Assembly: GCF_964204865.1 (NCBI RefSeq)
Contig: NC_135260.1
Span: 496,001 to 560,000 of the forward strand
Reading direction: 5' to 3'
Source of the DNA: Styela clava
Taxonomy: Eukaryota
Length of the DNA: 64,000 nucleotides
Shown here: positions 8,654-45,457 of the stretch, piece after piece
Position numbering within the stretch: the first letter of the stretch is position 1
Layout: the number at the start of each line of letters is the position of its first letter
Notes under the pieces: model-generated
What the model saw: only the letters and a program-made list of their open reading frames with translations
What the model was told of the DNA's origin: nothing
Database searches by the model: none
Program-made: the position numbers and the translations under genes

Positions 8654-8904
8654 CTGCAAATAAATCAAATAATAAAAAAAAAGTATAACTTGACTTGCAG
8701 GGTATTTGTTTGAAATTATTTTAAATTTCTGAAATTTTTCTTCACTCTAAGTAAGGCTTTGTAAAATCAGCCACTGATACAGCAGCATTGTCTAACCCAA
8801 TTTATCGACATGACTGAAATGGGGTTTAAACCCGAGACTATCCGAGAGATCATTTGAAGCTCCGACAACTTTGCCATTGACTAAATAAGTCCTGATGTAC
8901 TTAC

Positions 8905-10291
8905 CTAGACTATAACATTCGGCGGAATTCAAAGTTTTTATGTTGTCTAACTCAACATTTCCGCATGCCTCGAGCTCAAGTTGGACCTGAATGAAAAAAG
9001 ATTGATGTTTGAGCAGGGCTGCGAGGTAGAGTCTAGAGTGGAAGTTAAGAATGCATTCATTGAAAAGTTAAAATCGAACTACGAAGTAAGCAACTTGGAT
9101 TTCTAGGTTTGAGTAAGGAATCAGAATCAAAAATATTTTTTTTGAGATTTATACATGCGGTGAGGAAAGGTGATAACACGGCTAATAGGTGTTTCCAGTT
9201 TGTAAAGGGATTCTAGAGAAACTACAATAATGCAAAGTAATGATTAGAACCTCTGCCTGCTGATGAAGCTGGACTATTATCCACCAAAATCTTAAAAAAA
9301 CATTTGCATGTTAGATGGGATTCGCATCCAAAGCAATTCCGAGTCAAATTGATTTTCGCTATCAAGTGTGTTGCAAACCATGGTATCTGTTGAGTTCGCT
9401 TTCTTTAAAATGAATTTCTCGGTCTTCCAGTTTCGGTTTCCAGCAGAAAATGGCCAGATTGCTGTCCTAAAAATTACAAAACATATCATTGCTGCATTCA
9501 CATAGACTTCCAAAATAAATCAAAATTAGTTATATTCTGCTTTTTTCAGGAAACTCATTTATATGGAATCTATTATAATAGCTGCTATCCTGAGCGCATC
9601 AACTTTAACTGCCTGAAGTTTCATGCCAGAATTTGGCTCACAGATGATAATCAAAGAAAATTATTTTTTTTGGAATGATCTAAAACAAGGGTGTGCAACC
9701 TTTAATAAAAGGGCCAAATATAAATACCTGGATGAAGCAGCTTGCCGCACCTTGATAAATAGGCTTTGCGTGACAACATGGCATGGGTTGTTTATAGTCA
9801 TAGATATTAATTTGGACAGAGGTATAGGTTTTGCTACGCAAAGAGATTGGAATTACTTGCAAGTATCAGATTAAACAAAAATGAAAAATTTGTTTCCAGT
9901 GCCGCACATTTGTCAAAACTGGCACTATTTCCCAGGTTCGCACAAATTTTTTACTGGGGGGGGGGGGGGGGGGGGGCATTTTGCCCGCTGGCGACAGGTT
10001 GTACAACCCTAAAACACTAAATTTCAAATTCCGTTTATGGTTTTTAAAAATAATAATTCTTTACTTAACAGTGAATGCCTATACAAAGCATGCTCCGGAG
10101 TGAAAGCGACGATTAGTCGGGTAAAAAAATAAATGCAGTGTTAGCTACTTACGCTACAGTACCATTGTAAGCCTTAGCCACCAGTTCTCCATCAGATCTC
10201 CCTTTTATGTCGACACTCATGCATAGTTCCTCATTGCCAGCCAAAGTTTTGGGTAAAGATCTGACTGTACCATTACCAGCAAGTACGTAAC
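8905..10291 (-). CDS. Gene A MAM-like domain exons (10153-10291, 9379-9466, 8905-8986)
   Basis: LCMSVDIK..GELVAK...AIWPFSAG..WKT...VQLELEACGNVELDNI..C resembles the MAM pattern CLxF...GxLxV...LW...W...FEA...IALDDI...C. Confidence 0.6.
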
Positions 10292-11363
10292 CTAGGTTGA
10301 ATAAAAAAAACGAGAGGGTAACTGGTGTGTGATTCGGGATCATGCTCAAGTATTTTTCGACACAAGTTGTTTCAATTCTTTTTCAATTATCAGTTTGGCT
10401 CAACATGCTAAGCATTAGAAATGCGCGTGACATCGCACGTCTAATTAGCCTGAGTGTGTTCGCAGTTTTGAATCCTGTGGGGAATAATTTTAACGACAGG
10501 ATTCTCTTCACCGTTCATGCTATCAATAGTTGGTTAGATTTTCTCAACCATCATGTCTATGGCCTAACCCTAATCTGGCAATATTTATCACATGTGAGTA
10601 GAAAGCCAATAAGACAGTTTAATCATATAATGAACCACATCAGTGATCTCACTATCAGTTCATATTGGATTCAGAAATAGTTAAGTAGTTATTTGTTTCA
10701 GATACACAGACTAGATAGTGATTTTCCCGATGATTAAGCCATCTTTCACTTCCCCGGAATTAATTTGTAAATCCTATTCTTCATTCCGCCAAAATACAAA
10801 TCACCTACCGGAAATGAACAAAAAACAACGTGAGTAACGGTGATTTCTGGGTCTTTTGTAGTTTAATATCACATGTACTTCTAATGGGCGTGGCTTAAAC
10901 AACTTTGCATATGGTATTCCCAATCCCCACGTAAAACCGATGTTTCTTGGATATTTTTTTGTATGATGTAGTCATATGAGGGTCAGAAATAACACATGAC
11001 AAAATGGTTATGCTACGCTCACTAGAATTACATGCGGTACTATATTAGATATATATATATAACAAACCAGACCCAGATTTTTCGAGTCTCGCAGCGAAAC
11101 GGCAACGCCAAAGAGCATAAAGCCAGGCAAAGCCCAGACTATGGATGCCATCTTGAGGCGATTTTGCTATGTCATGTATTCGAACGTCTTGCGGAGAGTA
11201 AGAAGTCATTTCTCAAATACATTCCGTGGTTCGTATTTACATCCCACTCCAAACAAGACGCTAGAAAAGACAATTACTAATACATAAAGATCTACTTTTC
11301 TGAAAATGACTATTATAATATCTATTCTAGTGCATACGATACTAAAAGACATAGATTTGATAC

Positions 11364-11489
11364 CCTGGGGAGTGGTCGTTCCTTTGACATCTACAACAGA
11401 GGGCGGCACTGAGTTTGTCTCTGATTTTTCCATCGTCTTTTTCATTTTAAAGAGCTTACTTTCCATTTCGTCCAACTTTTCCGTTAAAG
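11364..11489 (-). CDS. Gene A coiled-coil plus S/T/P linker exon
   Basis: 126-nt phase 1-1 exon ALTEKLDEMESKLFKMKKTMEKSETNSVPPSVVDVKGTTTPQG with heptad pattern. Confidence 0.75.
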
Positions 11490-13133
11490 CTGCGAAACAT
11501 AAACGAAAACAGAATTTAAATTGAATCCTCAGTTTTACAGTCCGTATTCAGTAAATATTCTGTAAGAAGATATGTACCCCACTCTCTCTCTGGTTGAAAA
11601 TAGGAATATGAGATGGGTATTGCTTAATTACACGTTATGATGTGGTTGTTGAAAATAGCGCCATAAAAATATGAAAGGATTTATATTCTTATAATAAAAC
11701 GATTGTTAGAAGACATGTACAAGACCGTTTGACGAATATAAAAAAATTGCAAACGTATTTCAAAGGAAAATATATCGTGGACACAAACCTTCCAAAGCCT
11801 TCTCTTCTTCTTTTGTGCACGGTCCTTCCTGAAATGGAACAAAAGAGAAATGTTTAAATATATGGATATGAAGGCTGCACATCCGTGCAGTAATGTCTTA
11901 GCTGAGCAGAGGTTTCCCGTGAAAAACTGTTCCCACGGAATGAAGTGAAAACAAAAAATCTGGGATTATAGTATGTTTTGAACCTTCAGTACTTATAGAT
12001 GTAAGAAATTGCTAGAAAGTTCAATATATAATTTTTGTTTTCAGATTTCAAGCAAAACAGTTTAATTTCTAATTTCTATAAATAATACCAACAATATGAA
12101 ACTACTACTGAAGCTCTCACCGTAACGTTTTTTCAAGTAGGTTTTCCGTCGCGAACCATAGGAATCCAGCATTTCTCACCTGTCAATTAAAATTAGAAAT
12201 CGAGCAAAATAATCATTTTAAAATAGGGTCATACCAGATAAACGGAAGGTATGTTACTGAACTTTTTTCACATCGAGACAAATTCAGTACCTATTTACTT
12301 ATGGCGCACATTCGCTCATTCCATATTTAATTTCATAATGCTGCGCCCGTCATGCGAACGCACTATTTTTCCTCGATGATGATTGATCGAATCAAATTTG
12401 AACTATTATGCCCGCCATAGGGAAACCTAATGATGTTTAACGTTACTGCAAGCATGGTCTAAGATCTGTTCGATACCCGCGATTCAGTTTCGAGAATCTG
12501 AGTATCGTAACAATTCTTTCAGGCTAACAATGAACTCAGGAATAAACAATAAACTCAAATTCACTCATAGTTTGCTGCTCTGGACCTTCTTCAGGATTCA
12601 CATAGTTCCGAGTATTTCTGTAGTTTATTCAACATCTTTCGATGAGATTTATTTGACGTTTTGCACGTCTTTCCACCCGAACAAGACTCTGTGTTAACGG
12701 CCACTGATACGTTATTAGCTGATATATTTTAGACGGGCACAATCTTGTTGATTCGGCATTACTTATTCAGTTTACAACAATGTATATTACGATACAAAAT
12801 TTTAGGTTTAAAAACTGAAACATTCCGTATGAGGTAATCCTCTCATCGAAGATTTAAAACCAAAGCGCTGTATTGCATACTCGTATATATATTATGATGA
12901 AGGAACGGCCATTTGGCACAATCATCATTTATTTTTATAGTGGCCCCCGCTTTTGGAGTGCAACAAAGGTCTAGTTAGAATTTCTCCGTAACTAATTCAA
13001 CTTTTAAAGAGAGATCGATGTTTGCCATGTTATTACACCGCCATACTGACTTCCTCTATGCTGGAACAAACTTAAAAATTATACATAGATACGTTGGCTA
13101 CGTATAATAAACAACAAATCCGGAATCTGAGTC

Positions 13134-19119: not shown

Positions 19120-20113
19120 TTATAATTCACTTTCACAGATGGCTCCGTTATATTCAGAGGAAGGACGAACATTATAAATCCCTTGATATATGTTTTCCGG
19201 GTTAAGATTGACAAGAACAACAACAGATGTCCACGATGCATAGGGCTTCGGATAATTAGGATACCAAACCTCTTTTGGCAGAGACATAGCTTGACCTGTC
19301 GTTGAATACAGCTGACTGTTCTGTGAAATAAAAATATGTTTTGAGAAATATAACAAATGGCAGTTTGAGAATATACTGGTTGAACCAGTAATCCTTGTCA
19401 TATGATCTGACAAAGCAAAACAAACTCATTTGATCTCCAGTAAGATACTGAATGAAGCGTGACACCATCACGTGATTATTCTGCTTAGTCACACTTCAGT
19501 GATTACCGTTGGTGAATGAGAATTGAATGACATAGACACATAAATCAAATTCTTCTCTGATTCAGTATCAGAGCTGTAAAGTTGAAGCCCTGGTGTTTGA
19601 GTCAAATTGTTGAATTACCCGGAAATATTACATGGAAACGAAAGTTTGTGGTTGAATTTAAAATAAAAACTGGAAAAGGCTGGCAAACAAACTTTTTAAA
19701 TTTGTATGAAAGTCAAATTTGATATCAGCTTGGATTAGTCAGTGTTATAAATGGCCCGATTTGAACTTCTCTCCTATGCTAAAGCTATATGAATTTAACC
19801 TCAAGATAAAATGAAATAGTAGTACATGGTAATGCAGAAACAATATCGGCTTCATTATATAATGATTTCATGTATGGCCGCACAAGCAACATGATTCAGA
19901 CTCGACCTACCTTGTAAGTCATTCCTGTATAAACATAAATGTATGACCATCCATCAGGAATCATTGGTCGTAAATAATCTAGAAGCAGATTGTAGTGTGT
20001 GACGTCATAAATGTTAGCAAGTTTGTTTTTGCAAAGAGATTCAGCGACGCTTAATGTGACGTTCTGTGCTTTGTAAACGATAGCTCGAATACATTCCAAA
20101 TTATAGCCACATT
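19120..20113 (-). CDS. Gene B C-type lectin-like domain exons (19911-20113, 19120-19320)
   Basis: CGYNLECIRAIVY...AESLCKNKLANIYDVTHYNLLLDYLR...TGMTYK|NSQLY...VWYPNYP...GIYNVRPSSEYNGAICESEL*. Confidence 0.8.
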
Positions 20114-23100
20114 CTGAAATAAAAATAATAGTCATAATAGTTTGGAGTCAGATATTTATGAAACAATTATTAAAGAGAATATTTATTTCTATGTGTTACT
20201 TAATAACCTTTATTTATTTCATTCATAATAATTGTCTTTTGTAGTTTTGTTACAATAATATTCTTGTGAGCCTTCAGTAGCTTTGATCATACGTCATCTT
20301 ATTTGCTTCAAGAAAGGTCATGCGAACTCACCCAGAAATAAAGTAAAATTTTCTCTGCGCAAAGTACGGGCAACCACTGAGGTATTAAAGCTTAAAAAAA
20401 ATGTAACAGTGAGATTTTGAAAAACATTTTTGTCTCAATGACGCGAGTTCATAGAGAACCGACACCGACACTATCGCCAGTGGATGCCGCGATTAATCAC
20501 CAGTATCAGTGTTCCTTGCACAGTAGGGATTCGACAAGCTTCGGACTCGTTCTCGGATTCGTGGCCGAATCTCTCGTGATTTGATACTCGGATTCGGCCC
20601 AAGCCTTTGATGATTTTACCCGAGTCTGTGACATCATACGTCACGCGATAGTCACTCGCAGCATGGCGCATTCGATGGGAAATTCATCTTTTTCGTTCTA
20701 TTTTGCCACGGGAGTGTTCTCTCTTTTATCCATCGCTTACGGCAAGAGTGCAATTCAAAACGACGTAAGGTGTTTAAAAAATATTTTTAAAATCTACTAA
20801 TTGACCATTAATCCGTAATCAGTGTACCCACATTTAGAAATAAAACAATAAAAATCGTGAATATTAATTTTAGAGGGAAGTGCAACTCGCAGATGTCAGT
20901 GGCGGTATAATAGTTTAAGGTTTTATGTACAAATACACGCTGGCATGTAGCAATCAAATGCATGAAATGTGAAATTATTAGTTAATGTTAATCAAGTCGA
21001 TTTCTATTGTCATTCAATGAGTATTTACATGTGCCATGCTTAGTTTCCAATCGAATTATTCTAATATTTTAAACAAATACCGGATTGTGAAATATGATCA
21101 AAACTCTTTCGAAATTTACTAGAAGACTGAAAACTTGGTAACAAAACTGCGTTTTTTATTTCATAATTTTGTCATAATTGATTATTATTTGTCACCGCGA
21201 CATTCCAGATAATGCTGGTAATCTATATTAAAGCACTTTTTTATTCACAAGTAAATATTGATTCTCATGCAACGGCAGACATCCTAGTTTGGTTTTTATA
21301 TTTCGGACAGAATTGTGAGTTTACATCGGTGAAGATGAGCTATCAATGAGTGAATTTACAACACAAATTAATTTTATTTCCACCTCCTTTGTAGGATTTG
21401 ATCCTCCATATCACAATTTGTAAATTACGGTCTCAATTTTAAGCGAACAATATTATCATTACTGTCCCTGGGATGCTATATTTTTGAAGCTGATAGTTGG
21501 TTTTTCATGTTTTTTAATTTTATATCGTGTTCGTGTTATTTACGTATTATAATAATAATTAAAACTTCGCAAATTGGTAATGTACTCATCTTTGGGCTAA
21601 AACAATGATACAAAATACAACTACAATGGTAAATCGGCAATAATGGCATTTATATTTGGTCAAAATGATATTTTTCCCTAAAATCTCGAGAAATTCCCAT
21701 AAATTACATTATAATTTGTCGTACTTATCTGTTTCGACGTTGCTGACTTTAAAAAAGCGATGTTGACGGGCTTTATGCAAAATTAGAATTAGAATTACTT
21801 ATCATTATCAGCGCCAATTACAAAGATGATTGTCCCGAAAGCAATGGTCTTTATGTGCAACGTTTTGAATTACCGGTACATAGTCTTATCTTACAAAGTG
21901 TTTAATTTAAGGCCAAAATACACGAACAACAGCATCACTTAGGTATTTATTTCGGAGCGATGTGTGAAAGTATTGGACTCAAGACTCGGACGCGAGTCCA
22001 ACGCAAATACTCGGATTCGGCCGAGCCAAACCTTCTTGGATTCGTCGCATCCCTATTGCACATTGTCTTATTCGCATTTAATGTGTAAAATCCCTCAGGC
22101 ATTTTAGAAATAAGAGCTCGTTGCCTATCTGTGGCCGCTTGTGCGAAGTCTTTTTCTGAAAGAATGTGTGCAAACTACCGGTAAGAACAGCATCCGCTTA
22201 CATATCAGTAATTGATTGTAAATGGCACATTCGGAATAAATGTGTTTTTAACGTCAGCTCTTGACGACGCAATAGTTGTTTGTGTAGAATGTTGTTCAGA
22301 GTGAAAGCATGAAAACCGGAAGGTATCTCCATTTTTGAGTGAGTGCGATGCCAGCGGTAATGGCTCGCGAGTCACATACGAATCAGGAGAAAGCACCTGA
22401 ATTTAATTATCAAGCGGAGGCAACAGGGATTCCCTGAGTAATCACGAATGAACTGGAAAGAGTCTGGCATTTGAATCTGCGAGCTGGCAGCAAGAATACG
22501 GTTGCAATAGGGATGGATATATAGACAGCAGGTTAGGAATAAGGATGGACATATGGTGCCAATACCCATTTAAATGGCTTATTCCTTACAGGGCTATTGG
22601 GCTGTCATATAGACAGTAGGTTAGGAATAAGGATGGATATATGGTCTCAATCACCATTCAAATGGCCTCCTCCATATAGGGTGATTGGACTGCTATATAG
22701 ACAACATGTTAGAAATGGAGGTTGAATGGTACTGATCGCTAAAGAAAAAAACTTACTTGGAGTGCACACTGGTGTTGTGGACCATGAGCCGTCAGCGTTG
22801 CATGTTCCCGTCTGTCCCCCTTCCAAAGTGAAACCATTTCTGCAAGAGTACCTGACCTCCTGATCCTCACTGTACAAGTCTTGCTCGGGAGAAATTGTTC
22901 CGTTCGCAAGATTTTGCTTCACGCACGGTGTATCTGCAAGAAAATCAAATGATAAAAAAAGCTTAACTTGACTTTCAGATTATTTGTTTGTGATTATTTT
23001 AAATTTATGAAAGTTTTCTTCACTTCAAACAAGGCTTCGTGGAAGCGACCACTGATACACACACACTCCAAGCAAGGGTTTGTGGCATTGTACAGCAGCA

Positions 23101-26100
23101 TTGTCTACCTCAATTTATCAACCTGACTGAAATAAGGTTTGAACCCGAGAATATCGGAGAGAACATTCAATGCTCCAACAACTTTCGCATTGACAAAATA
23201 AATCTTGATGTACTTACCTAGATCATAACATTCGGAAGAGTTTAAAGTTGTGATGTTGTCTAACTCTACATTCCCGGATGCCTCAAGCTCAAGCTGGACC
23301 TGAATGAAAAAAGATCCAAGTTTAAGCACCGCTGCGAGGTAAAGTCTAGAGTGGAAGTCGAGAGTGCTTCCAGTGTGAAATCGGAATTGAACTTTCTAAC
23401 TACGAAGTCAGCAACCGGAATTCCAGATTTCTAAATGTGATAATCGAAGACAATTTTCAGACAGATCGCGAAAAGCATTACGTTCACTAAGCATTTTCAA
23501 CATGCTTGCATGAAATTAAGTTTTTGTGGAAAAATTTTGGTTTTCTTGGTTTGACCTAGACTGCAATGTTTCCCAAACTTTTTGAGCCGCGGACCGCTGT
23601 TTGTGAATCTTAATTTTGATGCCTTAATAAAATGAATAAAAATATTAAAATGAAAATGGCGTTTTCTGGAAGCTATGAATATTCATCGGCAACACTCAAC
23701 CAAAATATGCAATGGCTTTTTGATTGAAATCAATCATTAAAATCGATTACTCATTTCATATCGTTGCGGATCCCCTGCGCAATCATCATGGACCACCAGG
23801 GGTCCGCGGACCCTAGTTTGGGAATCCCTGACTTAAAGTAAGGTAAATAGATTCAGAAATTGTTGTTGATTTGGAGTCAGTCCTTGAATGGATCAGAATT
23901 GCGAGAGGATTCTCATAGAGTCAAAAAATCTACATTTGAGGTTTATACATGCGAAGAGAATTCTAGAGAAACTCCAATTATGCAAAGAAATGACTGAAAC
24001 CCTCTGCACGCTGATCAAACAAGACTATGTCCTACCAATATCAACCAAACGCCCATGTGAGGTGGGATTCCTGTAGTATGTGTACCAGGTTAGACATAAT
24101 TTTGTTTCGATTTTCCTTATTTTATTTCCACTACGTGTTCGGGAACTGTCTGTGTTAGCCAAGTGACTAACCCCTTTCCTTACATGTCAGTCATTTTACG
24201 CAACTTTGTGTAAAATAGGCGAACAAAATTAGTTACCTCCATATTGGTACACACACGTCTGGAACGCCAAAACTTTTGCATAATGTGGGATGGGATTCAT
24301 TTTTAAAGCAATTCTGATTTAAAAAGATTTTTGCTAACAAATGTGTTGCAAACCTCTGTATCTGTAGAGTTCACTTTCTTTAAAATGAATTTCTCGGTTT
24401 TCCAGGTAGTCGAGGCAGAAAACGGCCAGATTGCTTTCCTAAAAAAAACGAAACATATCATTGCTGTCTTCACATAGACTTACAAAATAAATCACAATCA
24501 GCTATATTTTTCGTTTTCCTGTAACCTCATTTATATGCAATCCATTATTCAGCTTTTGTACTGAGCGGATCAACTTTAAAGTACCTAAAGCCTCCCATTA
24601 ATCAGTATTTTCTAATGTGTAATGCACAGATATAGTTTCGGCAGCTCTTCACATTACAGTGGTTGTCAGTAATTCTGTTCACAGATGATCCTCGGATGGA
24701 AAATTTTTAAAAAGGGGGTGTGCAACCTTTAATACTAAGGGCCAAATACAAATAACTGGGTGAAGCCACGGGCCGCATCTTTATTTAACATTGGCTTTGC
24801 GTGACAACATGACATGCGTTGTTCATAGCATAGATAATATATTGGACCGAGGTATAGGTTTTGCAAAGGGATTGGAATCACTCCCACGTATCAGATTAAA
24901 CTAAATTAAACATTTTGTTTTGCGTGTCGCACATTAGTAAAATCTGGCAATATTTTGCAGGTCGCACAATTTTTTTTGTGGGCCGCATTTTGCATGCTGG
25001 CGACAGGTTGCACATCCCTGAAACACTGAATTTCAAATTCCGTTATTGGTTTTTAAAAATAATAATTCTTTACTGTACAGTGACTGCCAATACAAACATG
25101 CTCTAGAGCAGGGGAGTGACTGCCAATACAAATGCTCTAGAGCAGGGGTTCCCAAGCTTTTTCAGGACGACCCCAAAGACAACTTTCAAGTGTCCAGTGC
25201 GACCCCAGGTCAATAGATATATTTTTCATACAACTTTACAGCTTTTCTCACTGGACTTTTGAGTCTGGTCAAGTGATATTATTAGGTAAAATAAGCTAAA
25301 ACCAAACAGTGATGTCACAATAAGCACCTACATTTTCTATAGCATAATCATAGAGCGATGCTTATAGGCCTGTTTTACAGTAAGCCATGGTACAAACTGC
25401 TAAATTTAACATGGTTTGTCAAATCTTAGATGTTTTGTACATCCATCCTCTACCATACATCAGCGCCCCACCGACCTGTTTGCGACTCTACCTACTTATG
25501 ACTCGACTCAATTTGGGGTCCCGACGGTCCTGGGCCTTGGGAACTCCTGCTCAAAAGTGAAAGCAGCAAATGGTCACATAAAAAAATGAATACAGTGTTA
25601 GCTACTTACGTTACAGTTCCATTGTGAGCCTTGGCCACCAGTTCTCCATCAGATGTATTTTTTATGTCGACACTCATGCATAGTTCCTCATTGCCAGCCA
25701 AAGCCTTAGGTAAAGATCTGATTGTACCATTACCAGCAAGAACATAACCTAAGATGAATTAGAATAAAACAATTAGAGTGTATCTGGTGGGAGAGATGGA
25801 AAAACAGCATCTTTCAATTCTTGTGTGAGAGAATCTGAAATCTGACCGCGCAATGACACGGCATAGTTTGGCGCATCATGCTAAGCGGTAGAAATGCGCG
25901 TTTTATCGAGAGGCCGTGGTTCGCCGTATAATTGAGTCGTCTCGTCAGCTTTCTTCATCTCACTCACTCACTCATAAGTAAAGGAGACTCATTTGTAAGC
26001 GAAGTTACAGGTAATCACTCAGAAGTAAAGGAGACTCATTTGTAAGCGAAGTTACAGGCACTCACTCAGAAGTAAAGGAGACTCAGTTGTAAGCAAAGTT

Positions 26101-29100
26101 ACAGGCACTCACTAAGAAGTAGAGGAGACTCATCTCTGAGCAAAGTTACGGGTACTCACTCAGGAGTAAAGGAGACTCATTTGTAAGCAAAGTTACAGGT
26201 AATCACTCAGAAGTAAGGGAGACTCATTTGTAAGCGAAGTTACAGGCACTCACTCAGAAGTAAAGGAGACTCAGTTGTAAGCAAAGTTACAGGCACTCAC
26301 TAAGAAGTAGAGGAGACTCATCTCTGAGCAAAGTTACGGGTACTCACTCAGGAGTAAAGGAGACTCATTTGTAAGCAAAGTTACAGGTGATCACTCAGAA
26401 GTAAAGGAGACTAATTTGTAAGCGAAGTTACAGGCACTCACTCAGAAGTAAAGGAGACTCAGTTGTAAGCAAAGTTACAGGCACTCACTCAGAAGTAAAG
26501 GAGACTCAGTTGTAAGCAAAGTTACAGGCACTCACTAAGAAGTAGAGGAGACTCATCTCTGAGCAAAGTTACGGGTACTCACTCAGGAGTAAAGGAGACT
26601 CATTTGTAAGCGAAGTTACAGGTAATCACTCAGAAGTAAAGGAGACTCATTTGTAAGCGAAGTTATAGGCACTCACTCAGAAGTAAAGGAGACTCAGTTG
26701 TAAGCAAAGTTACAGGCACTCACTAAGAAGTAGAGGAGACTCATCTCTGAGCAAAGTTTCGGGTACTCACTCAGGAGTAAAGGAGACTCATTTGTAAGCG
26801 AAGTTATAGGCACTCACTCAAAAGTAAGAAGACTCATTTGTAAGCAAAGTTACGAGTACTCACTCAGAAATGAAATTGACTCATTTCTGTCATTTGTAAG
26901 CAAATTTACTCAGAAGTAAAGGTGACTCATCCAAGCGTTTAATATAGAAACAATACCTGTAACGCCATTATCTCTGTATTCTCTCTGAAATGTTCCATTA
27001 ACTCTAGTGTAGCCGCATGTAGGGTTGGTTGAAGACTCAAAATCACATGTAAGGTCGACTGAAAAACACAAAAACCTTTTTTAGAGTCCGAGCCTCATAT
27101 TCTGGCCTAAACCGACTATTATTTCATTCTGAACAGGTCTGTAAAATCGGATGAAATTCACATCGACATCGGGTTGAAACAATTTCAATACCGACTCAGA
27201 TTTGAAGTCCAAAGATAATCAAATGTCAGAATGTCAGACTTTCAATGGTGACAAGTCAAAATTAGCTATCAAAATTTAAAAAGTAAGTTTGCTAAACAGT
27301 GTATTTAGAGGCTTGAATGGATTGGACTTAAAGAGCAAACTTCTTTTAAATATCAGTCAGATTAGGAGTTAGCTCCACCCCTGGAGTATGCGTACCAAGA
27401 TGGCGGACACCGAAGCGTAGTATGTGTACCAAGTCATAATTTTAGGTTAAAATAGCCTACTACGGGAGTCACTTGGTTAGTCCCCGAACTCATAATAGAA
27501 CTGATAATAAATGAGGAAAATTGGAATAAAATTATCCTAAACCTAACCTGGTACACCGTTGTGTTGAATGATAGGGATCCCGTGCGAAGAGATATGAGCG
27601 AAAATATCGCCAGACTCCGCGCCGACGCTGGTAAGTTACGGCTCTGATTCAGTGCATTTTTTATCTAATAGTTTTAAGCAAAAACACTCTCAAAATTAAC
27701 GTCAAAGTATAAAAATAAAGTCAAAGGTCAAACGTCCATTTTTGCTCTGATTCAACTATTTTTGTAACCAGCAATTTTATGCGGATGTACTAAATAGTAC
27801 CGATATTTAAAGTCGCACAAACACTCTTAAAATTAATAGCAAAAGCATAACATTGGGGGTCAAAGGTCAAACGTCAATTTTTGTTGTGATTCAACAATAT
27901 TTTTATCCAATAATTTTACGAGGATGCATTGAACAGCATAGCATCTAAAGTCAAAGTCAGTTGCACGCGAGCGCAGTCGTTTTGCACGCCGTTAGCTATA
28001 ATTGCACGCCTGGAATTCTGATTTGCACGCAGGATTTTCTGATTGCACGCCCGATTTCTCGTTCAAAAAGGCCATGAAATTCATGTTGGATTTAGAAATA
28101 TTTACTAGTTAATTGTTTCAGATACACAGACTAGATGGCAAGAAAGCCGTGAACGACCAGCGGTTATGTGATAACGAGGGGTCCAGCAATACTCTCGCAC
28201 ATAATTATCCCTTGATGGAACCACCGAACACCTCGAAGTTTTGAAAATTATCCACAATTAAACAGCGCTATGTGAACACTTACCTATGCAAGTGGGCACT
28301 TCACCCCAGGTTCCATTTTCTCCGCATTTTCCAATGTTTGATCCTTGAATAACGTATCCAGCATTGCATGAATATTCGATAGTCTGATTGACATCTAAGG
28401 CAGTTGCGGTGTCTACAGTCCCGTTGTCTGGAGCTTTAGGGGCTGGGCAGGTACGTACTGTAATAGAATATTGAAACAAGTATTGGAGAAAGTTGTGTAA
28501 ATTTTTTATGACTACATACAGAAATTAAAATTGTTTTTAAACTTAAATAAATAATCTAAACAATGTCAGCAACCATTCAATTTGCAAAAAAAACGTCACC
28601 CACCCCCTCTTCTATAGTTTCCTACTTGAGGTACTAAACTACATGAAACCCTAATTTTTTACAGGGGGGAGTGGGTTCGTACTTCAAGTATTCTAGTGGC
28701 GTAGCAAAACAATTTTTACATAGGTCAATAAGGTGACCAGACTTCACAACAGACATGGTTTTTGGAGCTGAGGCCCGAAATTTTTGCCCAACTGGTCTGG
28801 CGGGCCATAAAAGTGTGACGCAAAAAGTTACATTTTATGCACAATATTTACAGTGTTACGAAAGCAAAATGGTAAAACAATAAGCCTCGTGTCAAAACTA
28901 AATTAAATAGCAATCTCAACAAATTCCTTGAGCTATTTTCAACTGAAACAGTAAAATTTGGTTTTATATTGGTGGGCCAGATGAAATTACCCATCAGGCC
29001 TGATTTGGCCCGCAAGCCGTAGGCTGCCCATGTCAGATTAAGATACTGGATGGGGAAAACTACAACTCGGCACAGCCTTTCGTTCGGTCAATCAGGTCTT

Positions 29101-32100
29101 GGAGAAATTTGTGAAAACTACATACAGAAATTAGATTTGTTTTTAAACTCAAGTTAATTAAAAGATGATAAGTAATTGTGAACGTCACATGCGGTTTTCT
29201 GAATGAGGCCCTTGCAAAAAAACTTTGCCTCCCGCGCTCCCTCCTTTAGACAAGGTATTATCAATATATGCGGACTCACTATTCTGACTATCCTGCAGGC
29301 TGGATTCCATGGCAGGTGGACGCCCGAGATCGCTAGCGCTTCGCAATAATGCACGAGAGCAAATTCAATTCTGCTCGCCGAAAATTTGCAATTGCTCACC
29401 AATGAAAATCGATTCAAATGGTTTTTAAATCAATAATCCAGTAATATAAAGATGGCAACAAATTGCAGCTCCACAATTGTCAACTACATACTAGCTTGCA
29501 ACAATTTGGCCTGATCAAAAAATGCGAAGCAAAAAAGAATGTCGTGTTGAATGATAGGGATCACATGAGAATAGTTATGGGCGAAAAGATCGCCAGACTC
29601 CCCGCCGACGCTGGTAAGTTACGGCTCTGATTCAGCGCATTTTTTATTCAATAGTTTTACGCAAAACACTCCCAAAATAATGTCAAATTATAAAAATAAT
29701 GTTTGGGGGTCATAGGTCAAACGTCCATTTTTGCTTTGATTCAACGTTTTTTTTTAACCAGCAATTTTACGGGGATTTATTAAACAGTACCAGTATTTAA
29801 AGTCGCACAAACACTCTTATTAAAATTAATAGCAAAGCATAAAAATAATGTTGGGGGTCAAAGATCAAACGTCCATTTTATCCAATAATTTTATGAGGCT
29901 GTATTGAACAGCATTGCATCTAAAGTCAAAGTCAGTTGCACGCGAGTGCAGTCGTTTTGCACGCCATTAGCTATAATTGCACGTTGTGAATTCTGATTTG
30001 CATGCGAGAATTGCTGATTGCACGCCCGATTTCTCGTTCAAAAAGGCCATGAAATCCAGACTGGTGCCATTACCCGTTCATGTTGGGTTTAGAGATAATT
30101 ACTAGTTAATTGTTTCAGATACACAGACTAGATGGTGAGAAAGCCGTAAACGACCAGCGGTTATGTGATAGCGAGGGGTCCATCAATACTCTCGCACATA
30201 ATTATCCCTTAATGAAACCACCGAACACCTCGGAGTTTGAAAAATTATCCACGATTAAACAGCGCTATGTGAACACTTACCTACGCAAGTGGGCACCTCA
30301 CCCCAGGTTCCATTTTCTCTGCATTTTCCAATGTCTGATCCTTGAAGAACGTATCCAGCATTGCATGAATATTCGATAGTCTGATTGACCTCTAAGGCAG
30401 TTGCGGTGTCTACAGTCCCGTTGTCTGGAGCTTCAGGGGCTGGGCAGGTACGTACTGTAATAGAATATTGAAACAGGTATTGGAGAAAGTTGTGAAAAAT
30501 TTTTATGACTACATACAGAAATTAAAATTGTTTTTAAACTTAAATAAAAGATCTAAACAATGTCAGCAACCATTCAATTTGCAAAAAAAACGTCACCCAC
30601 CCCCTCTTCTATAGTTTCCTACTTGAGGTACTAAACTACATGAAACCCTAATTTTTCACAGTGTGGTGACCAAACTTCACAACAGACATGGTTTTGGAGC
30701 GAGGGTAAAAAATATTTCCCACCTGGTCTGGCGGGCCATAAAAGTGTGACGTAAAAAGTTACATTTTATGAATAATATTTACAGTGTTACAAAAGCAAAA
30801 GTGGAAACAATAGGCCTTGTGTCAAAACTAAATTAAATAGCAATATCAACAAATTCCTTGAGCTATTTTTAACTGAAACAGTAAAATTTGGTTTTATTTT
30901 GGGGGACCAGATGAAATTACCCATCAGGCCTGATTTGTCCCGCAAGCCGCAGGTTGCCCATGTCAGATTATTAAGATACTGGATGGGGAAAACTACAACT
31001 CGTCACAGCCTTTCGTGCGGTCAATTAGGTCTTGGAGAAATTTGTGGAAACTACATACAGAAATTAGATTTGTTTTTTAAGCTTAAGATGAAACACTCCC
31101 AAAATTAATGTCAGAGTAAAAAAATAATGTTTGGGGTCAAAGGTCAAACGTCCATTTTTGCCCTTGATTCAAAGTATTTTTTTTAGCCAGCAATTTTACG
31201 CGAATGTACTAAACAGTACAGGTATTTATAGTCGCACAAACACTCTTAAAATTAATAGCAAAGTATAAAAATATTGTTGGGGGTCAAAGATCAAACCTCC
31301 ATTTTTGCTCTGATTCAACAATTTTTTATCCAATAATTCTACGAGGATGTATTGAACAGCATAGCATCTAAAGTCAAAGTCAGTTGCACGCGGGCGCAGT
31401 CGTTTTGCGTGCCGTTAGCTATAATTGCACACCGGGTATTCGGATTTGCATGTGAGAATTTCTGATTGCACGCCCGATTTCTCGTTCAAAAAAGGCCTTG
31501 AAATCCAGACTGGTGCCATTACCCGTTCATGTTGGGTTTAGAGATAGTTACTAGTTAATTGTTTCAGATACACAGACTAGATGGTGAGAAAGCCGTAAAC
31601 GACCAGCGGTTATGTGATAGCGAGGGGTCCAGCAATACTCTCGCACATAATTATCCCTTAATGGAACCACCGAACACCTCGGAGTTTGGAAAATTATGCA
31701 CGATTAAACAGCGCTATGTGAACACTTACCTACGCAAGTGGGCACCTCACCCCAGGTTCCATTTTCTCTGCATATTCCAATGTTTGATCCTTGAAGAACA
31801 TACCCAGCATTGCATGAATATTCGATAGTCTGATTGACCTCGAAGGCAGTTGCGATGTTTACAGTCCCGTTGTCTGGAGCTTTAGGGGCTGGGCAGGTAC
31901 GTACTGTAACAGAATATTGAAACAAGTATTGGAGAGAGTTGTGAAATTTTTTATGACTACATACAAAAATTAAAATTGTTTTCAAACTTAATTAAATAAT
32001 CTAAACAATGTCAGCAACCATTCAATTTGCAACAAAAAAATGTCACCCACCCCCTCTTCTATAGTTTCGTACTTGAGGTACTAAACTACACGAAACCCTA

Positions 32101-35100
32101 ATTTTTTACAGGGGGGAGGGGGTTCGCACCTCAAGTATTCTAGTGGCGTAGCAAAACAATTTTTCCATTGGTGTGGTGACCAGACTTCACAACAGACATG
32201 GTTTTTGAAGCAAGGGCCAAAAATTTTGCCCGACTGGTCTGGCGGGCCATAAAAGTGTGACGTAAAAAGTTACATTTTATGAACAATATTTACAGTGTTA
32301 CAAAAGCAAAAGTGGAAAACAATAAGCCTCGTGTCAAAACTAAATTAAACAGAAATCTCAACAATATCCTCGAGCTATTTTCAACTAAATCATCAAAATT
32401 AGGTTTTATTTTGATTGTGGCATAACTAGGTGGGCCAGATTAAATTACCCAACAGGCAGACAGGCCGGATTTGGCCCGCAGGCCGTAGGTCGCCCATGTC
32501 AGATTAAAATCCTGGATGGGAAAACTACAACCCCATAGCGTTTTGCTGTTTTGTGGCGTCAGTCAAGTCTTGGAGAAAGTCTGAAAGTTGTGAAAACTAC
32601 ATACAGAAATTAGATTTGTTTTTAAACTCAAAAATGTCCCGTCATTTTGTTCAATAAAACAAACACTCCCATGTGTCTCACAAACGAGGGGCATCTGGCA
32701 CCACGTCAGATGCGTCCTATCAAGCCATGCTTGTCTCAATAATAATCTAAACTAATCTCGGTTGTCACATGACCAAAATTGCCTGTTTTTTGTTAAAAGC
32801 TCTCGAATGCCACGGTAAAATTTTTTTTCCTTGGGCAAATCGGATCACTTTTTCCCCCCGAGGAATTCAATGATGACGTTTTTAGATTGCACTTTTTTTA
32901 GTATTTTGCGCAAATTCAACAATGTCCAGACGTCTCCCAAAGGAGGGGTGTCTGATCATCAGTAAAATGGGTTTTTCTGAAACGAGACAATGTCGCTCAA
33001 TCTGTATAATGTGCTGCACGGTACTGAAAGGTAAAATATAGTACGGTAAGTATAGAAGTTATTGTGATGTCACATGCGGGTTTTACGAATGCAGGAATGA
33101 GCCTTTGCAAAAAAAACTTTGCCTCCCCCACTCCCCCCTTCTAGACAAGGTGTTATCAATATATATGGAGCTACCATTCCAGCATTATGACTATTCCTGA
33201 ATCTCAAGTTATCTTTCCTCTTTCTGCTGTTCTGTCTTTGGGGCCTTAGGTGCTTATCAATACTGTACCTTGAATAGATTGACTAAATTTGGGCATATGT
33301 TATTTCTGCCCTTTTTTGACCCATCTGACTGCGGCATCCAAAAATTATGTCACTACGACTCCACGGTGACGTAACAAGCACCCAGAATATACAGACGGGC
33401 ACCCAAAACGCACAGAAAATTAGCCGAAATCGAGCAAGCTGCATTGGCGTCTCATGTAGTTTCTTACCTATTTAACCTATTTCTTACCTAACATACTTCT
33501 AGTGGGCGTAGCATGAAAATTTTTTCACGTATCAATCCTAACCCCCATCTGACTACACCATCCAAAAATTACGTCATTACGACGTCACAGTGACGTAATA
33601 GAGCCCTTCAAACTATATGAACTGCCATCCAAGACGCGCAAATGAGCACCCGAAATCGAACAGTTAGTTCTCTCGTTTTCTCGTCGCAACGATTCCAATA
33701 GGAGAGAGACCGATAACGTCAGTCAGTTTTTTATCGTCGGCGCCAATCTCGTTTCGGCCGATCGTGCGTATATTTGGCAAGCTCTATGCCGTGATTGTGA
33801 TGTCGTAGTGATTTAATTTTTGGATGGCGTAATCAGATGGGGGTTAGGATTGACATATCAAAAAATTGTTATGCTACGCCCACTAGAAGTACGTTAGGTA
33901 CAAAACTACACAAGACAAATGCATTGTATACAAGTCATTCTCATAGTTGGATCATTTTGTAGAGCTCAAATGAACAGAAGTTTAAATTAAACATTTTGAG
34001 GTTTGCGAAGTGATCGAACGACAAGAAAACGACAGAAAAAAAGTATGACACCTAATTCGGCATAGCTTGCTCGATTCGGGGTTATCATAAGCACGTTTTG
34101 GACGACCGTCCACATTAAATCACTGTGATTTTTGAATGGCGTAGTCAGATTATCGGTAGTCATATGGGGGTTCGGATAGACATATGCAAAAATGGTTATA
34201 CCACGACCACTAGAAGTACTAAACTAAAGTTCAAGCTGGACTTGCTATGGAAAAGCTTAACTTTTTATTTGTAAGAAAACAACTCACCTACCAAAACTGA
34301 ACAAAAAAAAAACGTGAGTAACAGCGATTTCTGGGTCTAGTACCGGTACAGTTCAGTTTAGTCCCACAAGATGGCGTACATAGTCCGAGCGTTGCCTCGC
34401 TTTATGACCTTCTGACCTTTGTCGTTTTGCTGTGAGACTCGAGAAATCGCGGCCTGGTATAGTTGAGTACCAAAAGTACTTCTAGTGGGCGTAGCATAAC
34501 CATTTTGGCATGTGGTATTCCTCCCCCCGACATGCAAATTTAAACCATTTAATACGTCATCCAGAAAAGACCCGCCAAAATATACGAACGTTTTTGCAAG
34601 AATTTATTTTTTTTGGATGACGTAGTCAGATGATGGTCGGGAATGACGAATGCCAAAATGATATGCTACGCCCGAAGTACTTGTTGTACTAAACTACACT
34701 ACACCCCGATTTCTCGAATCGCAGAGCGAACGACAGCACCAAAGGTCAGAAGGTCATGAAGCGAGGCAACGCTCAGACTATGTACGCCATCTTGTGGGAA
34801 TAAATAAAATCATTTTTCAAGAATAATCTTTTAGGCGAATGTTAATAACTTATAATCAAGTAAATACATTTAGTGTTTTTGGGATTCGTTTTCACATCTC
34901 ACTCCAAGCAAGTCGCTAGAGAAGACAATTACTAGTACATAAGGATCTACTTTTCTTGGAAGTGTCACAATTTACCTTTACTGGACCTCAGGTATTGAGG
35001 AATTCCTACTTAATATATTTGACGCGTACTAAAAAGCGCTTAGAGGAGAAATATTCTCCGAGTGAAAAACGAGAAAGAGGAGGCCACACCAACCTGTACT

Positions 35101-36195
35101 CTGTTCGACTTTTGTAGTTTGTGGGCGAAAAGTAGAGAAAAAGGCTTCCTTAGTTGACCACGGGGATGTAGCAGGGGCGGTAGTTTTCTTGTCTTTGTAT
35201 CCTGTGTGAAAAAGTGAGTTGATATTACAATTTTAAAGCAAGATTCATAGTTTTAGGTGCTTTAAGGAAAGAATGAGATACTGATTGGCAGTGCAAACTT
35301 TTTGTTTTTCAATGTTTTCGCATAATCGCCGTATTACTAATTACTATGACTGAAGAGGACTTTTTGTTCTAGTGCTTGAAAGACTTAGATTTTCTCACCC
35401 TGGGGAGTGGTCGTTTCTTTGACATCTACAACCGAGGGCTGCACTGAGTTCGTACTTAAATCTTCCAACCTCTTTTGTAATTGATCGAGCATACTTTCCG
35501 TCTCGTGTACTTGTTCCGTTAAAGCTGGGAAACATAAATATAAACAAATATTCAATTGAGCCATCAGTTTCACAGTCCATTATCAGTGAATTTTTTGTTG
35601 GAAGATATGTACCCTCACTCTCTGGGTAAAAATAAGAATATGAGACGGGTATTGCTAAACTACACGCCATGATTCAATTCTTCAAAATGGCGCAATAAAA
35701 ATATAAAATATTTGAATTTTTCAATAGAACGATTGTTTGACAAATATGAAAACATGGCAAACGTATTTCGAAGAAAACTATATTGTGAACACGAACCTTC
35801 CAGAGCCTTCTCTTGTTCTTTTGTGCACTGTCTCTCCTGAAATAGAACAAGAGAGAAATATTTAAATATATGGATATGAAGGCTGCACATCCGTGCAGTA
35901 AGGGCTCAGCAGAGCAAGTGTTATCATATGCCGTGAAAAAGTGTCTCCATGAATTAAATGAAAAACGTAAAATCTGGGATGAGGTATCGATTAAGATGAG
36001 TTTCGGTACTTATAGAATGATGGAAGAAATTTCTAGAAAATTCAATTTTTTCATTTTATTTTCAGATTGCAAACAAAACAGTTCAATTCCTGCAATAATA
36101 CCACCAGTATGAATCTACTACTACAGCTCTCACCGTAATAACGTCTCTCCAAGTAGGTTGATCGTCGCAAATCATAGGCATCCAGCATTGCTCAC
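19120..36195 (-). CDS. Gene B: multi-exon mosaic protein (Cys-rich N-terminus, coiled coil, 3x CCP/sushi, MAM-like, CCP, C-type lectin-like domain); signal-peptide exon not located
   Basis: Exons in transcript order, all GT-AG with matching phases: 36134-36195, 35797-35836, 35399-35524, 34288-34296 (microexon), 31730-31903, 30281-30454, 28284-28457, 25610-25748, 24354-24438, 23218-23299, 22757-22933, (optional 20332-20376), 19911-20113, 19120-19320 (TAA). The frame is open throughout; many NxS/T sites. Confidence 0.85.
20524..22055. mobile_element. Non-autonomous hAT-like element, 1.5 kb, in a gene B intron
   Basis: TAGGGAT.CGAC...GTCGCATCCCTA termini, TSD TTGCACA(G/T), subterminal CTCGGATTCG repeats. 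Confidence 0.8.
22515..22725. repeat. ~88-bp intronic tandem repeat x2-3 (single copy in gene A)
   Basis: ATATAGACAGCAGGTTAGGAATAAGGATGG recurs near 22520, 22607 and 22695. Confidence 0.7.
22757..22933 (-). CDS. Gene B CCP/sushi exon (fourth CCP)
   Basis: 177-nt phase 1-1 exon TPCVKQNLANG...YSCRNGFTLEG...TCNADGSWSTTPVCTP. Confidence 0.88.
23218..25748 (-). CDS. Gene B MAM-like domain exons (25610-25748, 24354-24438, 23218-23299)
   Basis: Phases 1-2, 2-0, 0-1 are consistent; homologous to the gene A exons; ends VQLELEASGNVELDNITTLNSSEC. Confidence 0.65.
23563..23830. mobile_element. hAT-like MITE
   Basis: CAATGTTTCCCAAACT...AGTTTGGGAATCCCTG termini; absent from the gene A intron. Confidence 0.65.
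25143..25549. mobile_element. hAT-like MITE in a gene B intron
   Basis: CAGGGGTTCCCAAG...CTTGGGAACTCCTG with degenerate 8-bp TSD CTCTAGAG/CTCAAAAG; empty site in gene A at ~10093; related copy at ~49972-50347. Confidence 0.75.
25965..26930. repeat. 47-bp tandem satellite (~20 units) in a gene B intron
   Basis: Unit GCACTCACTCAGAAGTAAAGGAGACTCATTTGTAAGCAAAGTTACAG with exact 47-bp spacing. Confidence 0.95.
27383..27557. mobile_element. MITE family 1 copy, truncated at the edge of the sushi triplication
   Basis: GTACCAAGATGGCGGACACC...AACCTAACCTGGTACAC. Confidence 0.7.
28284..28457 (-). CDS. Gene B CCP/sushi exon copy 3
   Basis: 174 nt, CAG/GTAAGT, VRTCPAPKAPDNG...YSCNAGYVIQG...CGENGTWGEVPTCI. 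Confidence 0.88.
30281..30454 (-). CDS. Gene B CCP/sushi exon copy 2
   Basis: 174 nt, CAG/GTAAGT, VRTCPAPEAPDNG...YSCNAGYVLQG...CRENGTWGEVPTCV; not shown in the ORF track. Confidence 0.88.
31730..31903 (-). CDS. Gene B CCP/sushi exon copy 1
   Basis: 174 nt, CAG/GTAAGT, VRTCPAPKAPDNGTVNIATAFEV...CRENGTWGEVPTCV. Confidence 0.88.
34288..34296 (-). CDS. Gene B candidate 9-nt microexon
   Basis: Minus strand TACTCAC-G-T10-GTTCAG|TTTTGGTAG|GTGAGT; frame-preserving; positionally conserved in gene A. Confidence 0.6.
   Translation of the reverse strand, partial: FW
34362..34799. mobile_element. Foldback element with long TIRs; related nested copies at 33320-34220 and 10877-11160
   Basis: TCCCACAAGATGGCGTACATAGTC...GACTATGTACGCCATCTTGTGGGA with an inner TACTTCTAGTGGGCGTAGCAT inverted repeat. 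Confidence 0.8.
35399..36195 (-). CDS. Gene B N-terminal Cys exons and coiled-coil exon (36134-36195, 35797-35836, 35399-35524)
   Basis: EQCWMPMICDDQPTWRDVIT|ERQCTKEQEKALE|ALTEQVHETESMLDQLQKRLEDLSTNSVQPSVVDVKETTTPQ; phases consistent. Confidence 0.75.
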
Positions 36196-38261: not shown

Positions 38262-39192
38262 AAAAACAGCGTTAACACTATGGAATAAAGTAAGGAGTAC
38301 CTCACCAGCTGGTATTAAATATTCGAAGAAAATACTACAGTGCGCCCCAAAAAACAAAACACAGGCAAGCAAGCAAACCAACAAAGCATGCACGGTTACA
38401 CTGACCTTTAATCAATAAATACGCCTCCACCAACAGTATTAGTCCGATGAAACTGGGTCGAATCGGAATCTGCATTTCGAATGCAAAAATTTCGTCTTTT
38501 TTTTTCTTCAATGAGAGTCGATGTTCGAACAACGTAGGTTAAAATGAAGCTTCAGTCTATTTGCATCGGAATATATCTCATGCAAGCTCACTCACTACTC
38601 TAAAACGGAAAGATAAATTGTTTTCTCTCTTTTAAATTTTAGGATACGTGTTGCGTCACAAAAAAGAGAGCTTGTTAAATGCTGCTCTTTCTATCTTTAT
38701 GAAACGATGACGACGTCACAACCACGCCCGTCAGAGCAATATTTGGTGGAATTTTGCGCGATATGGCGATATATTATATATGCGCGATATATTAGCCGCC
38801 ACCATGTTTCCTAATTTATGAGAATACAGGCCAAACATGTCTTGCCCGCTCCCAATATTGCCCTTGGCGAAACGGATTTTGCTGGCGCATTCTGGGTAGA
38901 TATAAGTATATTAACTAAAAATTAAAAGTTTAGGCTCAATAATGATTCTGAATTCCTAGCCTTCACCCTAACTGGATATTTACTGATTATTTTATTTTGA
39001 GCGGTGGCGGATAAATTTTTTTTTTTGACCAAAATTTCCTTCTCTAATGTTTTCAATGCACGGCCCTATTTTCTTAGCGTAATGCACGAATCGTCACCAA
39101 GATCGTGGCGTTTGGTAACTATCGGTGTCAAAAGTCTGATGCTTCTGGTCTCGGAATTTCCTCTCGAATAACAGTTTAGCGGTGTTCACCAG

Positions 39193-45385: not shown

Positions 45386-45457
45386 ATGCCGAACTCTTAT
45401 ATGACGACAGTACATTCCCTGTTATGTATAATACAAGGTATGACATCGTATTATGAC

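What the first reader, a model, noticed from the sequence alone, without database searches (positions are those of the whole stretch)
27560..32631. Sushi exon copy number is 3 in gene B and 0 in gene A
Three 174-nt phase 1-1 exons arose by recent tandem duplication with their introns. All keep 4 Cys, Trp and splice sites. By my count copy 2 vs 3 differ at 7 nt (6 non-synonymous) and copy 1 vs 2 at 8 nt (6 non-synonymous). Gene A keeps the flanking intron remnant (TTGTTTCAGATACACAGACTAGAT, ~10693) but not the exon. Symmetric exons allow any subset to be spliced in frame, so stalk length could vary between paralogues, alleles and isoforms.
Basis: partly seen in the sequence, partly recalled or inferred. 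Interest (0 to 1): 0.7.

Follow-up and report, generated by a model that had tools for sequence, protein, structure and literature searches.

The report
Variable Sushi spacer in sea-squirt lectins
A sea-squirt gene carries three intact tandem copies of one Sushi exon, and its many sister genes carry zero to three; the copies likely act as an adjustable spacer, resized by ordinary recombination, in a predicted secreted lectin-fold protein whose tip, not the spacer, shows signs of diversifying selection.

Summary
The triplication is real: three intact 174-nt phase 1-1 Sushi exons, 7, 8 and 11 nt apart, with duplicated introns. The framing needs correcting. Gene A keeps another Sushi exon, has a premature stop and a frameshift, and belongs to a different subfamily. 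The 6-of-7 and 6-of-8 non-synonymous counts match neutrality. Gene B is a predicted secreted 638-aa protein (signal, coil, Ser/Thr stalk, Sushi x3, MAM-like, Sushi, C-type-lectin fold) in a family whose named members are all Styela clava. Among 38 loci fetched, this exon occurs 0 to 3 times. Gene B is a patchwork of paralogues; it differs from a one-copy sister by two units whose ends map to the exon's 3' end, which points to unequal recombination. Contigs of likely RNA runs show normal splice joints and, by geometry only, Sushi-to-Sushi junctions. The selection signal lies in 41 codons of the lectin head: pN/pS 6.1, and 2.2 in 13 other loci, against 0.3-0.4 in the MAM-like part. Known mechanism, undescribed family.

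The parts
31730..31903 (-). Sushi exon copy 1 (174 nt, phase 1-1); 1 nt from the single exon of the paralogue at C14:916k
   Evidence: spliced to the Ser/Thr exon in contigs of 3 of 4 runs
30281..30454 (-). Sushi exon copy 2; 3 nt from the commonest type in the close paralogues
28284..28457 (-). Sushi exon copy 3; carries a private codon-36 letter also seen in a contig that runs on into the MAM-like exon
27558..32631 (.). Three exon-plus-intron units (27558-29152, 29541-31080, 31083-32631); introns between copies are 1823 and 1275 nt
38406..38475 (-). Gene B exon 1, predicted signal peptide
   Evidence: joint to exon 2 in 4 of 4 runs
35399..36195 (-). Gene B exons 2-4 (36134-36195, 35797-35836, 35399-35524): Cys-bearing N-terminus and predicted coiled coil
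35094..35201 (-). Gene B Ser/Thr/Pro-rich exon, phase 1-1; absent from gene A
23218..27058 (-). Gene B MAM-like domain, four exons (26957-27058, 25610-25748, 24354-24438, 23218-23299)
22757..22933 (-). Gene B second-type Sushi exon (0-5 copies across the family)
19120..20113 (-). Gene B C-type-lectin-fold domain, two exons (19911-20113, 19120-19320)
19147..19269 (-). 41 codons in the C-terminal half of the lectin fold with an excess of non-synonymous change
6970..12179 (-). Gene A, likely pseudogene: TGA at about 12133-12135, 7-nt loss at the start of exon 7771-7972, lacks Ser/Thr, first Sushi and first MAM-like exons, keeps Sushi exon 8480-8653
10650..10854 (.). Gene A intron remnants from both sides of the lost exon (10793-10854 upstream, 10650-10721 downstream), about 70 nt apart

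Best explanation
Gene B holds three intact tandem copies of a frame-neutral Sushi exon that were likely gained and exchanged by unequal recombination among near-identical paralogues, are likely spliced in one after another, and likely serve as a spacer of variable length in a predicted secreted, probably trimeric protein that ends in a C-type-lectin fold. Shown: the three exons, the open 638-codon frame, the 0-3 range across paralogues, the patchwork ancestry, the near-neutral differences between copies and the non-synonymous excess in the lectin head. Inferred: one tandem duplication in the gene-B subgroup made a Sushi-to-Sushi intron (downstream-intron part joined to upstream-intron part); crossovers in or beside the exon then added, removed and swapped units; because the exon is phase 1-1 every product stays in frame, so the number drifts. 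Binding specificity is likely set by the lectin head, and the Sushi count would change reach, not target. A role in recognising non-self surfaces is inferred from architecture and the selection pattern; it was not tested. Gene A's zero comes from an older deletion in its subfamily, and gene A itself is likely dead.
For: Mosaic: gene B's intron before copy 1 is 98.2% and its intron after copy 3 is 97.9% identical to the one-copy gene at C14:909-924k; the copy 1-2 intron is 97.3% identical over its whole length to that of the two-copy gene at C14:400-415k; the copy 2-3 intron is 95.7% (71% covered) to that of the three-copy gene at C14:371-390k, while gene B's two internal introns are 93.9% to each other. 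Copy 1 groups with the one-copy gene at 100/100 support; all 12 close copies form one clade at 100/100 among 36 exons. The one-copy exon equals copy 1 except at position 170, where it has copy 3's letter, so the two-unit difference maps to the exon's 3' end. Best match switches paralogue at least six times along gene B. Neutral copies: pN/pS 0.93, 1.87, 0.82; 16 non-synonymous and 7 synonymous distinct changes in 12 copies, ratio 0.71; exons differ about as much as flanking intron. Splicing: GT-AG joints for exon 1-2, 2-3 and 3-4 in 4 of 4 runs, 4-5 in 2 of 4, exon 5 to Sushi in 3 of 4; Sushi to MAM-like exon in 1 of 4. Two contigs (X5 record 9, X6 record 18) leave the exon's end with 28 further letters that are not among the listed loose ends, while depth piles on the exon's first 40 bases, which fits a Sushi-to-Sushi junction. 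No transmembrane stretch. Lectin fold: Z 13.6, rmsd 2.5, 111 aligned to collectin CL-K1; Z 13.4 to tetranectin (model of paralogue P0011). Trimer of residues 24-86 of P0011: score 0.32 against best control 0.09, contacts agreeing at least 81%, pLDDT at least 60; the mark was reached by 21 of 30 solved pairs and 0 of 23 single chains (eukaryotes 17 of 29 and 0 of 30). Lectin head: 41 codons pN/pS 6.1 in 6 close genes (P 0.0005) and 2.2 in 13 other loci (P 0.002); rest of the domain 0.75 and 0.72; MAM control 0.31 and 0.38.
Against: No Sushi-to-Sushi joint was printed (table 5 is empty, 9 loose-end rows were not shown), so tandem inclusion rests on contig geometry; a circular RNA of one exon would give the same junction. 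The runs are only guessed to be RNA, are contigs that collapse paralogues, and their main Sushi contig is the common family type, not a gene-B copy. The direction is open: gene B may have gained two units or the one-copy gene may have lost them. The trimer score sits exactly at the mark, the calibration was on two copies, and trimeric coils are solved many times, so the pass may be by likeness. The 41-codon region was picked after seeing the six-gene alignment (the 13-locus set is the check, and shares ancestry); counts are simple, without a recombination-aware model. The head lacks EPN, QPD and WND in 24 of 24 proteins checked, so sugar binding is not implied. Between distant members the exon is under purifying selection (pN 0.04-0.09 against pS 0.15-0.29 in 6 comparisons), which fits a structural role but also a binding role. 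No expression by tissue, no ligand.
Confidence: 0.68

Rival explanations
1. The copies are alternative cassettes (mutually exclusive or freely skipped) that diversify a binding surface.
For: All subsets are in frame. A database isoform of a paralogue skips the second-type Sushi exon (P0015 against P0011). Splicing that moves domains is described for Botryllus fester genes (PMC12582321, passages).
Against: Differences between copies match neutrality; introns of 1.3-1.8 kb do not force exclusion; contig geometry points to Sushi-to-Sushi junctions; all three acceptors and donors are near identical.
Confidence: 0.12
2. The Sushi array is itself the working part (binding a complement-like or matrix ligand) and copy number tunes avidity, as long homologous repeats do in human CR1.
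For: Closest solved sequences are complement regulators; CR1 alleles differ by repeat number through unequal crossing-over (PMC4842007, passage); the exon is conserved between distant members; two genes have three intact copies.
Against: Sushi hits to CR1 are generic for any Sushi protein; zero-copy members have open frames (P0199; loci at C14:961k and 4021k); the selection signal is in the head.
Confidence: 0.14
3. The triplication is an assembly artefact, or the surrounding 120-180 kb block is a second haplotype placed in tandem.
For: C14:255-437k recurs at 437-557k at 95-98%, close to the 1.72% heterozygosity reported for the species (PMC7540406, passage); no genomic reads were laid across the unit junctions.
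Against: The units differ by 9-13% with private indels; each junction has a 96-97% counterpart in another gene; no N gap in 255-600k. A haplotype placed in tandem would turn paralogues into alleles but would not create the triplication.
Confidence: 0.05

Closest known systems
Class 1-1 module duplication and shuffling (PMC3927616, passages)
   Same: One domain on one exon flanked by phase 1 introns, duplicated with its introns.
   Different: Nothing in mechanism; here it is caught in progress across many paralogues.
Human CR1 size alleles, 3-6 long homologous repeats (PMC4842007, passage)
   Same: Number of Sushi units changes by unequal crossing-over.
   Different: Unit is one exon, not seven domains (recalled); the protein is predicted secreted; exchange is between paralogues; database names such as CR1-like, SVEP1-like and selectin-like rest on Sushi similarity alone.
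Collectins and tetranectin
   Same: Signal peptide, N-terminal Cys, predicted trimeric coil, C-terminal C-type-lectin fold; a relative with the same N-terminus ends in a fibrinogen C domain like ficolins (P0082).
   Different: No collagen repeat, no EPN/QPD/WND motif; Ser/Thr stalk plus Sushi-MAM-Sushi cassette sits between coil and head.
Botryllus fester and fester co-receptor families (PMC12582321, passages)
   Same: Ascidian multigene family with Sushi domains, intergenic recombination, copy-number variation and variation concentrated in one terminal domain.
   Different: Those are membrane proteins with Ig domains; this is a predicted secreted protein with a lectin fold.
Styela clava membrane protein XP_077971489 (P0078; WAP-like, Sushi, MAM-like, Ser/Thr stalk, predicted TM)
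   Same: Shares the Sushi-MAM-Sushi cassette at 64% over 256 aa; four of the five later cassette exons searched hit the C9 locus in order.
   Different: Membrane-anchored, no coil and no lectin head; likely source of the cassette (inferred).

Membership tests
Sushi/CCP module (PF00084) | Profile match above the curated cut-off | tested here: met
   45.7-50.2 bits against cut-off 20.7 for 3 of 3 copies
Sushi/CCP module (PF00084) | Four Cys and the Trp; one phase 1-1 exon | tested here: met
C-type lectin-like domain | CTLD fold | tested here: met
   Predicted model of paralogue P0011, residues 391-520, Z 13.6, rmsd 2.5, 111 aligned; the 50 rows shown match this region. No Pfam hit.
Collectin | Collagen Gly-X-Y region (defining feature recalled) | tested here: not met
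   No run of five Gly-X-Y in the gene B model
Collectin | Ca-dependent sugar motif EPN/QPD with WND (motifs recalled) | tested here: not met
   0 of 24 family proteins
Collectin | Trimeric coiled-coil neck | tested here: inconclusive
   Score 0.32 at the mark, best control 0.09; may be by likeness
Selectin | N-terminal lectin, EGF, Sushi repeats, TM (recalled) | tested here: not met
   Lectin fold is C-terminal; no TM; no EGF above cut-off
CR1 / SVEP1 (database names) | CR1: long Sushi array with TM; SVEP1: vWA, EGF, pentraxin (recalled) | tested here: not met
   Only Sushi passes its cut-off with a matched stretch in 22 of 22 proteins; no TM
MAM domain | MAM jelly-roll fold and profile match | tested here: inconclusive
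   Top Foldseek hit LAST-MAM E 1e-6, 25% identity, meprins follow, but other jelly rolls score alike; no Pfam MAM hit
Fester family | Ig plus Sushi ectodomain and three TM segments | tested here: not met
   PMC12582321 passages
Mutually exclusive exon cluster (Dscam-like) | One copy per transcript | tested here: inconclusive
   Contig geometry suggests Sushi-to-Sushi junctions but no joint was printed
Innate pattern-recognition protein | Binds non-self surfaces, induced or made in haemocytes | not testable with these tools
   No ligand or tissue data

The most novel reading that the evidence does not exclude
This is an undescribed Styela family of secreted, trimeric, lectin-fold recognition proteins, clustered near chromosome ends, that diversifies on two axes: heads under positive selection are shuffled between paralogues, and Sushi spacers expand and shrink (0-3 here, perhaps 7 in another animal), so that each individual carries its own repertoire, a humoral counterpart in a solitary ascidian of the recombining fester receptors.
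Probability: 0.3. Interest if true: 0.72.

Novelty: new variant of a known kind. Interest (0 to 1): 0.42.

Why it matters
The exon triplication alone is textbook. It matters as a marker of a larger thing: a family of several dozen recombining genes with a positively selected lectin-fold head, hidden under misleading names (SVEP1-like, CR1-like, selectin-like) and chained gene models. If it recognises non-self, it is a testable candidate for diversified humoral immunity or allorecognition in a solitary ascidian, and counts of 'complement receptor' genes in this species may need a second look.

Tried and rejected
Positive selection on the three copies: rejected. In-place triplication as the whole story: rejected by nearest-neighbour matches. 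Reading the ATG inside exon 2 as the start: rejected once exon 1 and named proteins were found. A Sushi-like stretch at 22202-22396 is out of frame and treated as a remnant (no Pfam hit). The 7-copy model P0001 and the 5-6-copy models LOC120347599 X1-X5 as proof of allelic variation: not accepted, since X1-X5 string together exons of several paralogues of this genome. No run on record as RNA was listed; contig depth was not used to rank exons. No joint was listed on the narrow stretch. Whole-protein Foldseek and PDB sequence searches returned only Sushi proteins. The protein atlas gave no result. Earlier scan findings: none in 3 look-ups. Nine paper searches found no description of this family in the passages and listings seen. 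Relatives outside Styela clava: none named among 51 hits for the MAM-plus-lectin region; of 20 of the 150 representative hits looked up, 13 were S. clava and 7 were Sushi-rich proteins of other or unnamed origin, one of them a Clavelina cluster matching across Sushi and MAM; this does not prove absence.
Full report
Observation. The window holds two related genes on the minus strand. Gene B has three 174-nt exons at 31730-31903, 30281-30454 and 28284-28457 with intact splice sites, four Cys and the Trp; each hits Pfam Sushi and each is phase 1-1. The surrounding introns are repeated at 87-91%. Gene A has the 24-nt remnant at 10693 and no trace of the exon. The title overstates: both genes carry a second type of Sushi exon.

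Gene B. Fifteen exons give an open frame of 638 codons with one hydrophobic stretch, at the N-terminus: signal, Cys-bearing start and coil, Ser/Thr exon, Sushi x3, four MAM-like exons, Sushi, two lectin-fold exons. The matching database proteins are named Styela clava. A model of the paralogue P0011 matches C-type lectin domains at residues 391-520 (Z 13.6, rmsd 2.5, 111 aligned; whole model pLDDT 55.7, this domain about 75-90). A model of P0037 (pLDDT 77.6) puts a MAM-containing astacin first for the middle domain, with other jelly rolls close behind. Three copies of the N-terminal coil scored 0.32 against a best control of 0.09, at the mark and possibly by likeness. The head lacks the usual sugar motifs in 24 of 24 proteins (motifs recalled).

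Gene A. It has TGA in exon 2, shared with its twin at C14:318k, lacks the Ser/Thr, first Sushi and first MAM-like exons, and has lost 7 nt at the start of the first lectin exon; only a cryptic acceptor 30 nt further on would keep the frame. It is 76-92% identical to gene B in exons, while gene B's close relatives are mostly 89-100%. A relative at C14:961k lacks the same Sushi exon without a flagged stop, and a named 434-aa protein of that type is complete (P0199). So the exon was lost earlier in that subfamily, and gene A is likely a pseudogene.

Family. A search of the own genome gave 139 matches among 150 scored of 478 candidates. I fetched 80 stretches around the close matches and found 38 loci or fragments on 8 contigs, holding 36 exons of this type: 0 in 8, 1 in 26, 2 in 2, 3 in 2; the second Sushi type ranges from 0 to 5. 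Loci were chosen by this exon, so zero-copy loci are under-counted; some loci are fragments or cut by the fetch. Thirty of 38 lie within 1 Mb of a contig end, many in two clusters.

How the number changes. The 12 copies in seven close genes on C14 form one clade (100/100). Copy 1 is 1 nt from the single exon of the gene at C14:916k and 8-11 nt from its neighbours. Gene B's outer introns match that gene at 98%; its inner introns match the two-copy and three-copy genes at 97.3% and 95.7%. The one-copy exon is copy 1 with copy 3's letter at position 170, so the two genes differ by two units with ends in the exon's 3' part. This is what homologous, unequal recombination leaves; the direction is not settled. 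Each Sushi-to-Sushi intron is a downstream-intron part joined to an upstream-intron part, as one first tandem duplication would leave. The whole gene is a patchwork, and lies in a block of C14 repeated in tandem at 95-98%.

Selection. The copies differ as neutral sites would: pN/pS 0.93, 1.87 and 0.82, ratio 0.71 over 12 copies. In contrast 41 codons of the lectin head give pN/pS 6.1 in six close genes (one identical twin dropped) and 2.2 in 13 other loci; for that set I left out loci with flagged stops, frameshifts or missing lectin exons (12 flagged, 7 incomplete or not of this architecture, some both). The rest of the domain gives 0.75 and 0.72 and two MAM exons 0.31 and 0.38. In a sliding scan only the last three lectin windows of 32 reach P below 0.05. 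These are simple counts, and the region was first chosen by eye.

Transcripts. No run on record as RNA was listed. Four runs guessed to be RNA, laid as contigs, show GT-AG joints through exons 1-5 and into the Sushi exon (81 joints not shown). On a narrow stretch, one contig of run X6 with copy 3's private letter runs into the MAM-like exon. Two other contigs leave the exon end with 28 letters that are not listed as loose ends while depth piles at the exon start; I read this as Sushi-to-Sushi junctions, but no joint was printed and 9 loose-end rows were hidden. The contigs collapse paralogues, so isoform patterns of gene B remain open. A database isoform of a paralogue skips the second Sushi type (P0015). 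The 7-copy model P0001 has three variants absent from the 36 exons, but models X1-X5 of LOC120347599 chain exons of several genes, so it is a lead only.

Origin. A membrane protein on C9 shares the Sushi-MAM-Sushi cassette at 64%, and more distant family members have coil and lectin head without it (P0178, P0160); insertion of the cassette is inferred.

Comparison. Class 1-1 shuffling is established (PMC3927616, passages); CR1 alleles vary in Sushi repeats by unequal crossing-over (PMC4842007, passage); fester genes recombine between paralogues and splice stalk exons (PMC12582321, passages). The species genome paper counts 25 MBL, 54 ficolin and 16 CR1 genes by BLAST and does not use the word sushi in its main text (PMC7540406, passages); its supplements, not read, may list these genes. 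An endostyle study names SVEP1 and P-selectin as anterior markers (PMC9953650, passages); whether those are family members is unknown. PMC5465252 and PMC5400394 were seen as passages; other papers only as listings. Nine searches found no description of this architecture.

Verdict. Real feature, known mechanism, wrong comparison gene, no selection on the copies. The interest lies in the family it exposes. Novelty: new variant of a known kind; interest 0.42.

Noticed in passing
window 19147-19269 and paralogues: Excess of non-synonymous change in the C-terminal half of the lectin fold (pN/pS 6.1 and 2.2), the strongest signal in the locus.
   Followed up: yes
G000:C14:255191-437232 and 437235-557334: Tandem block duplication at 95-98%; gene B sits opposite three genes of the other block. 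Could be a real duplication or a second haplotype.
   Followed up: partly
G000:C14:389580-390610 (L009): The three-copy paralogue has an open frame of about 30 repeats of an 11-residue Thr/Val-rich unit upstream of its Sushi exons, a second way to lengthen the stalk; its first exons were not found.
   Followed up: partly
RefSeq LOC120347599 X1-X5 (P0002, P0003, P0023-P0025): Gene models chain exons of several paralogues; none of the 10 proteins examined holds copy 2 or 3 of gene B.
   Followed up: yes
   Followed up: partly
G000:C9:22225356-22232250 (P0078): Membrane protein with the same Sushi-MAM-Sushi cassette; its database cluster has 32 members differing, in the two seen, in the Ser/Thr stalk.
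   Followed up: partly
window 25965-26869 and 13654-13898: 47-bp minisatellite, 19 copies inside gene B's MAM intron and about 4 upstream of gene A; about 6.5 kb long in the paralogue at C14:274-280k.
   Followed up: no
window 22202-22396: Out-of-frame Sushi-like remnant with splice-like ends, shared at 98% with the C14:371k gene.
   Followed up: partly
window 41068-42837 and 43165-45391: Another tandem pair at 83-91% identity upstream of gene B, no gene assigned.
   Followed up: no
G000:C14:472523-489744: Three copies of a 5.7-kb unit at 99.98-99.99% identity, very recent or an assembly artefact.
   Followed up: no
G000:C8:40858-93521: Truncated family fragments in inverted arrangement near the contig end, with near-identical Sushi exons.
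   Followed up: no
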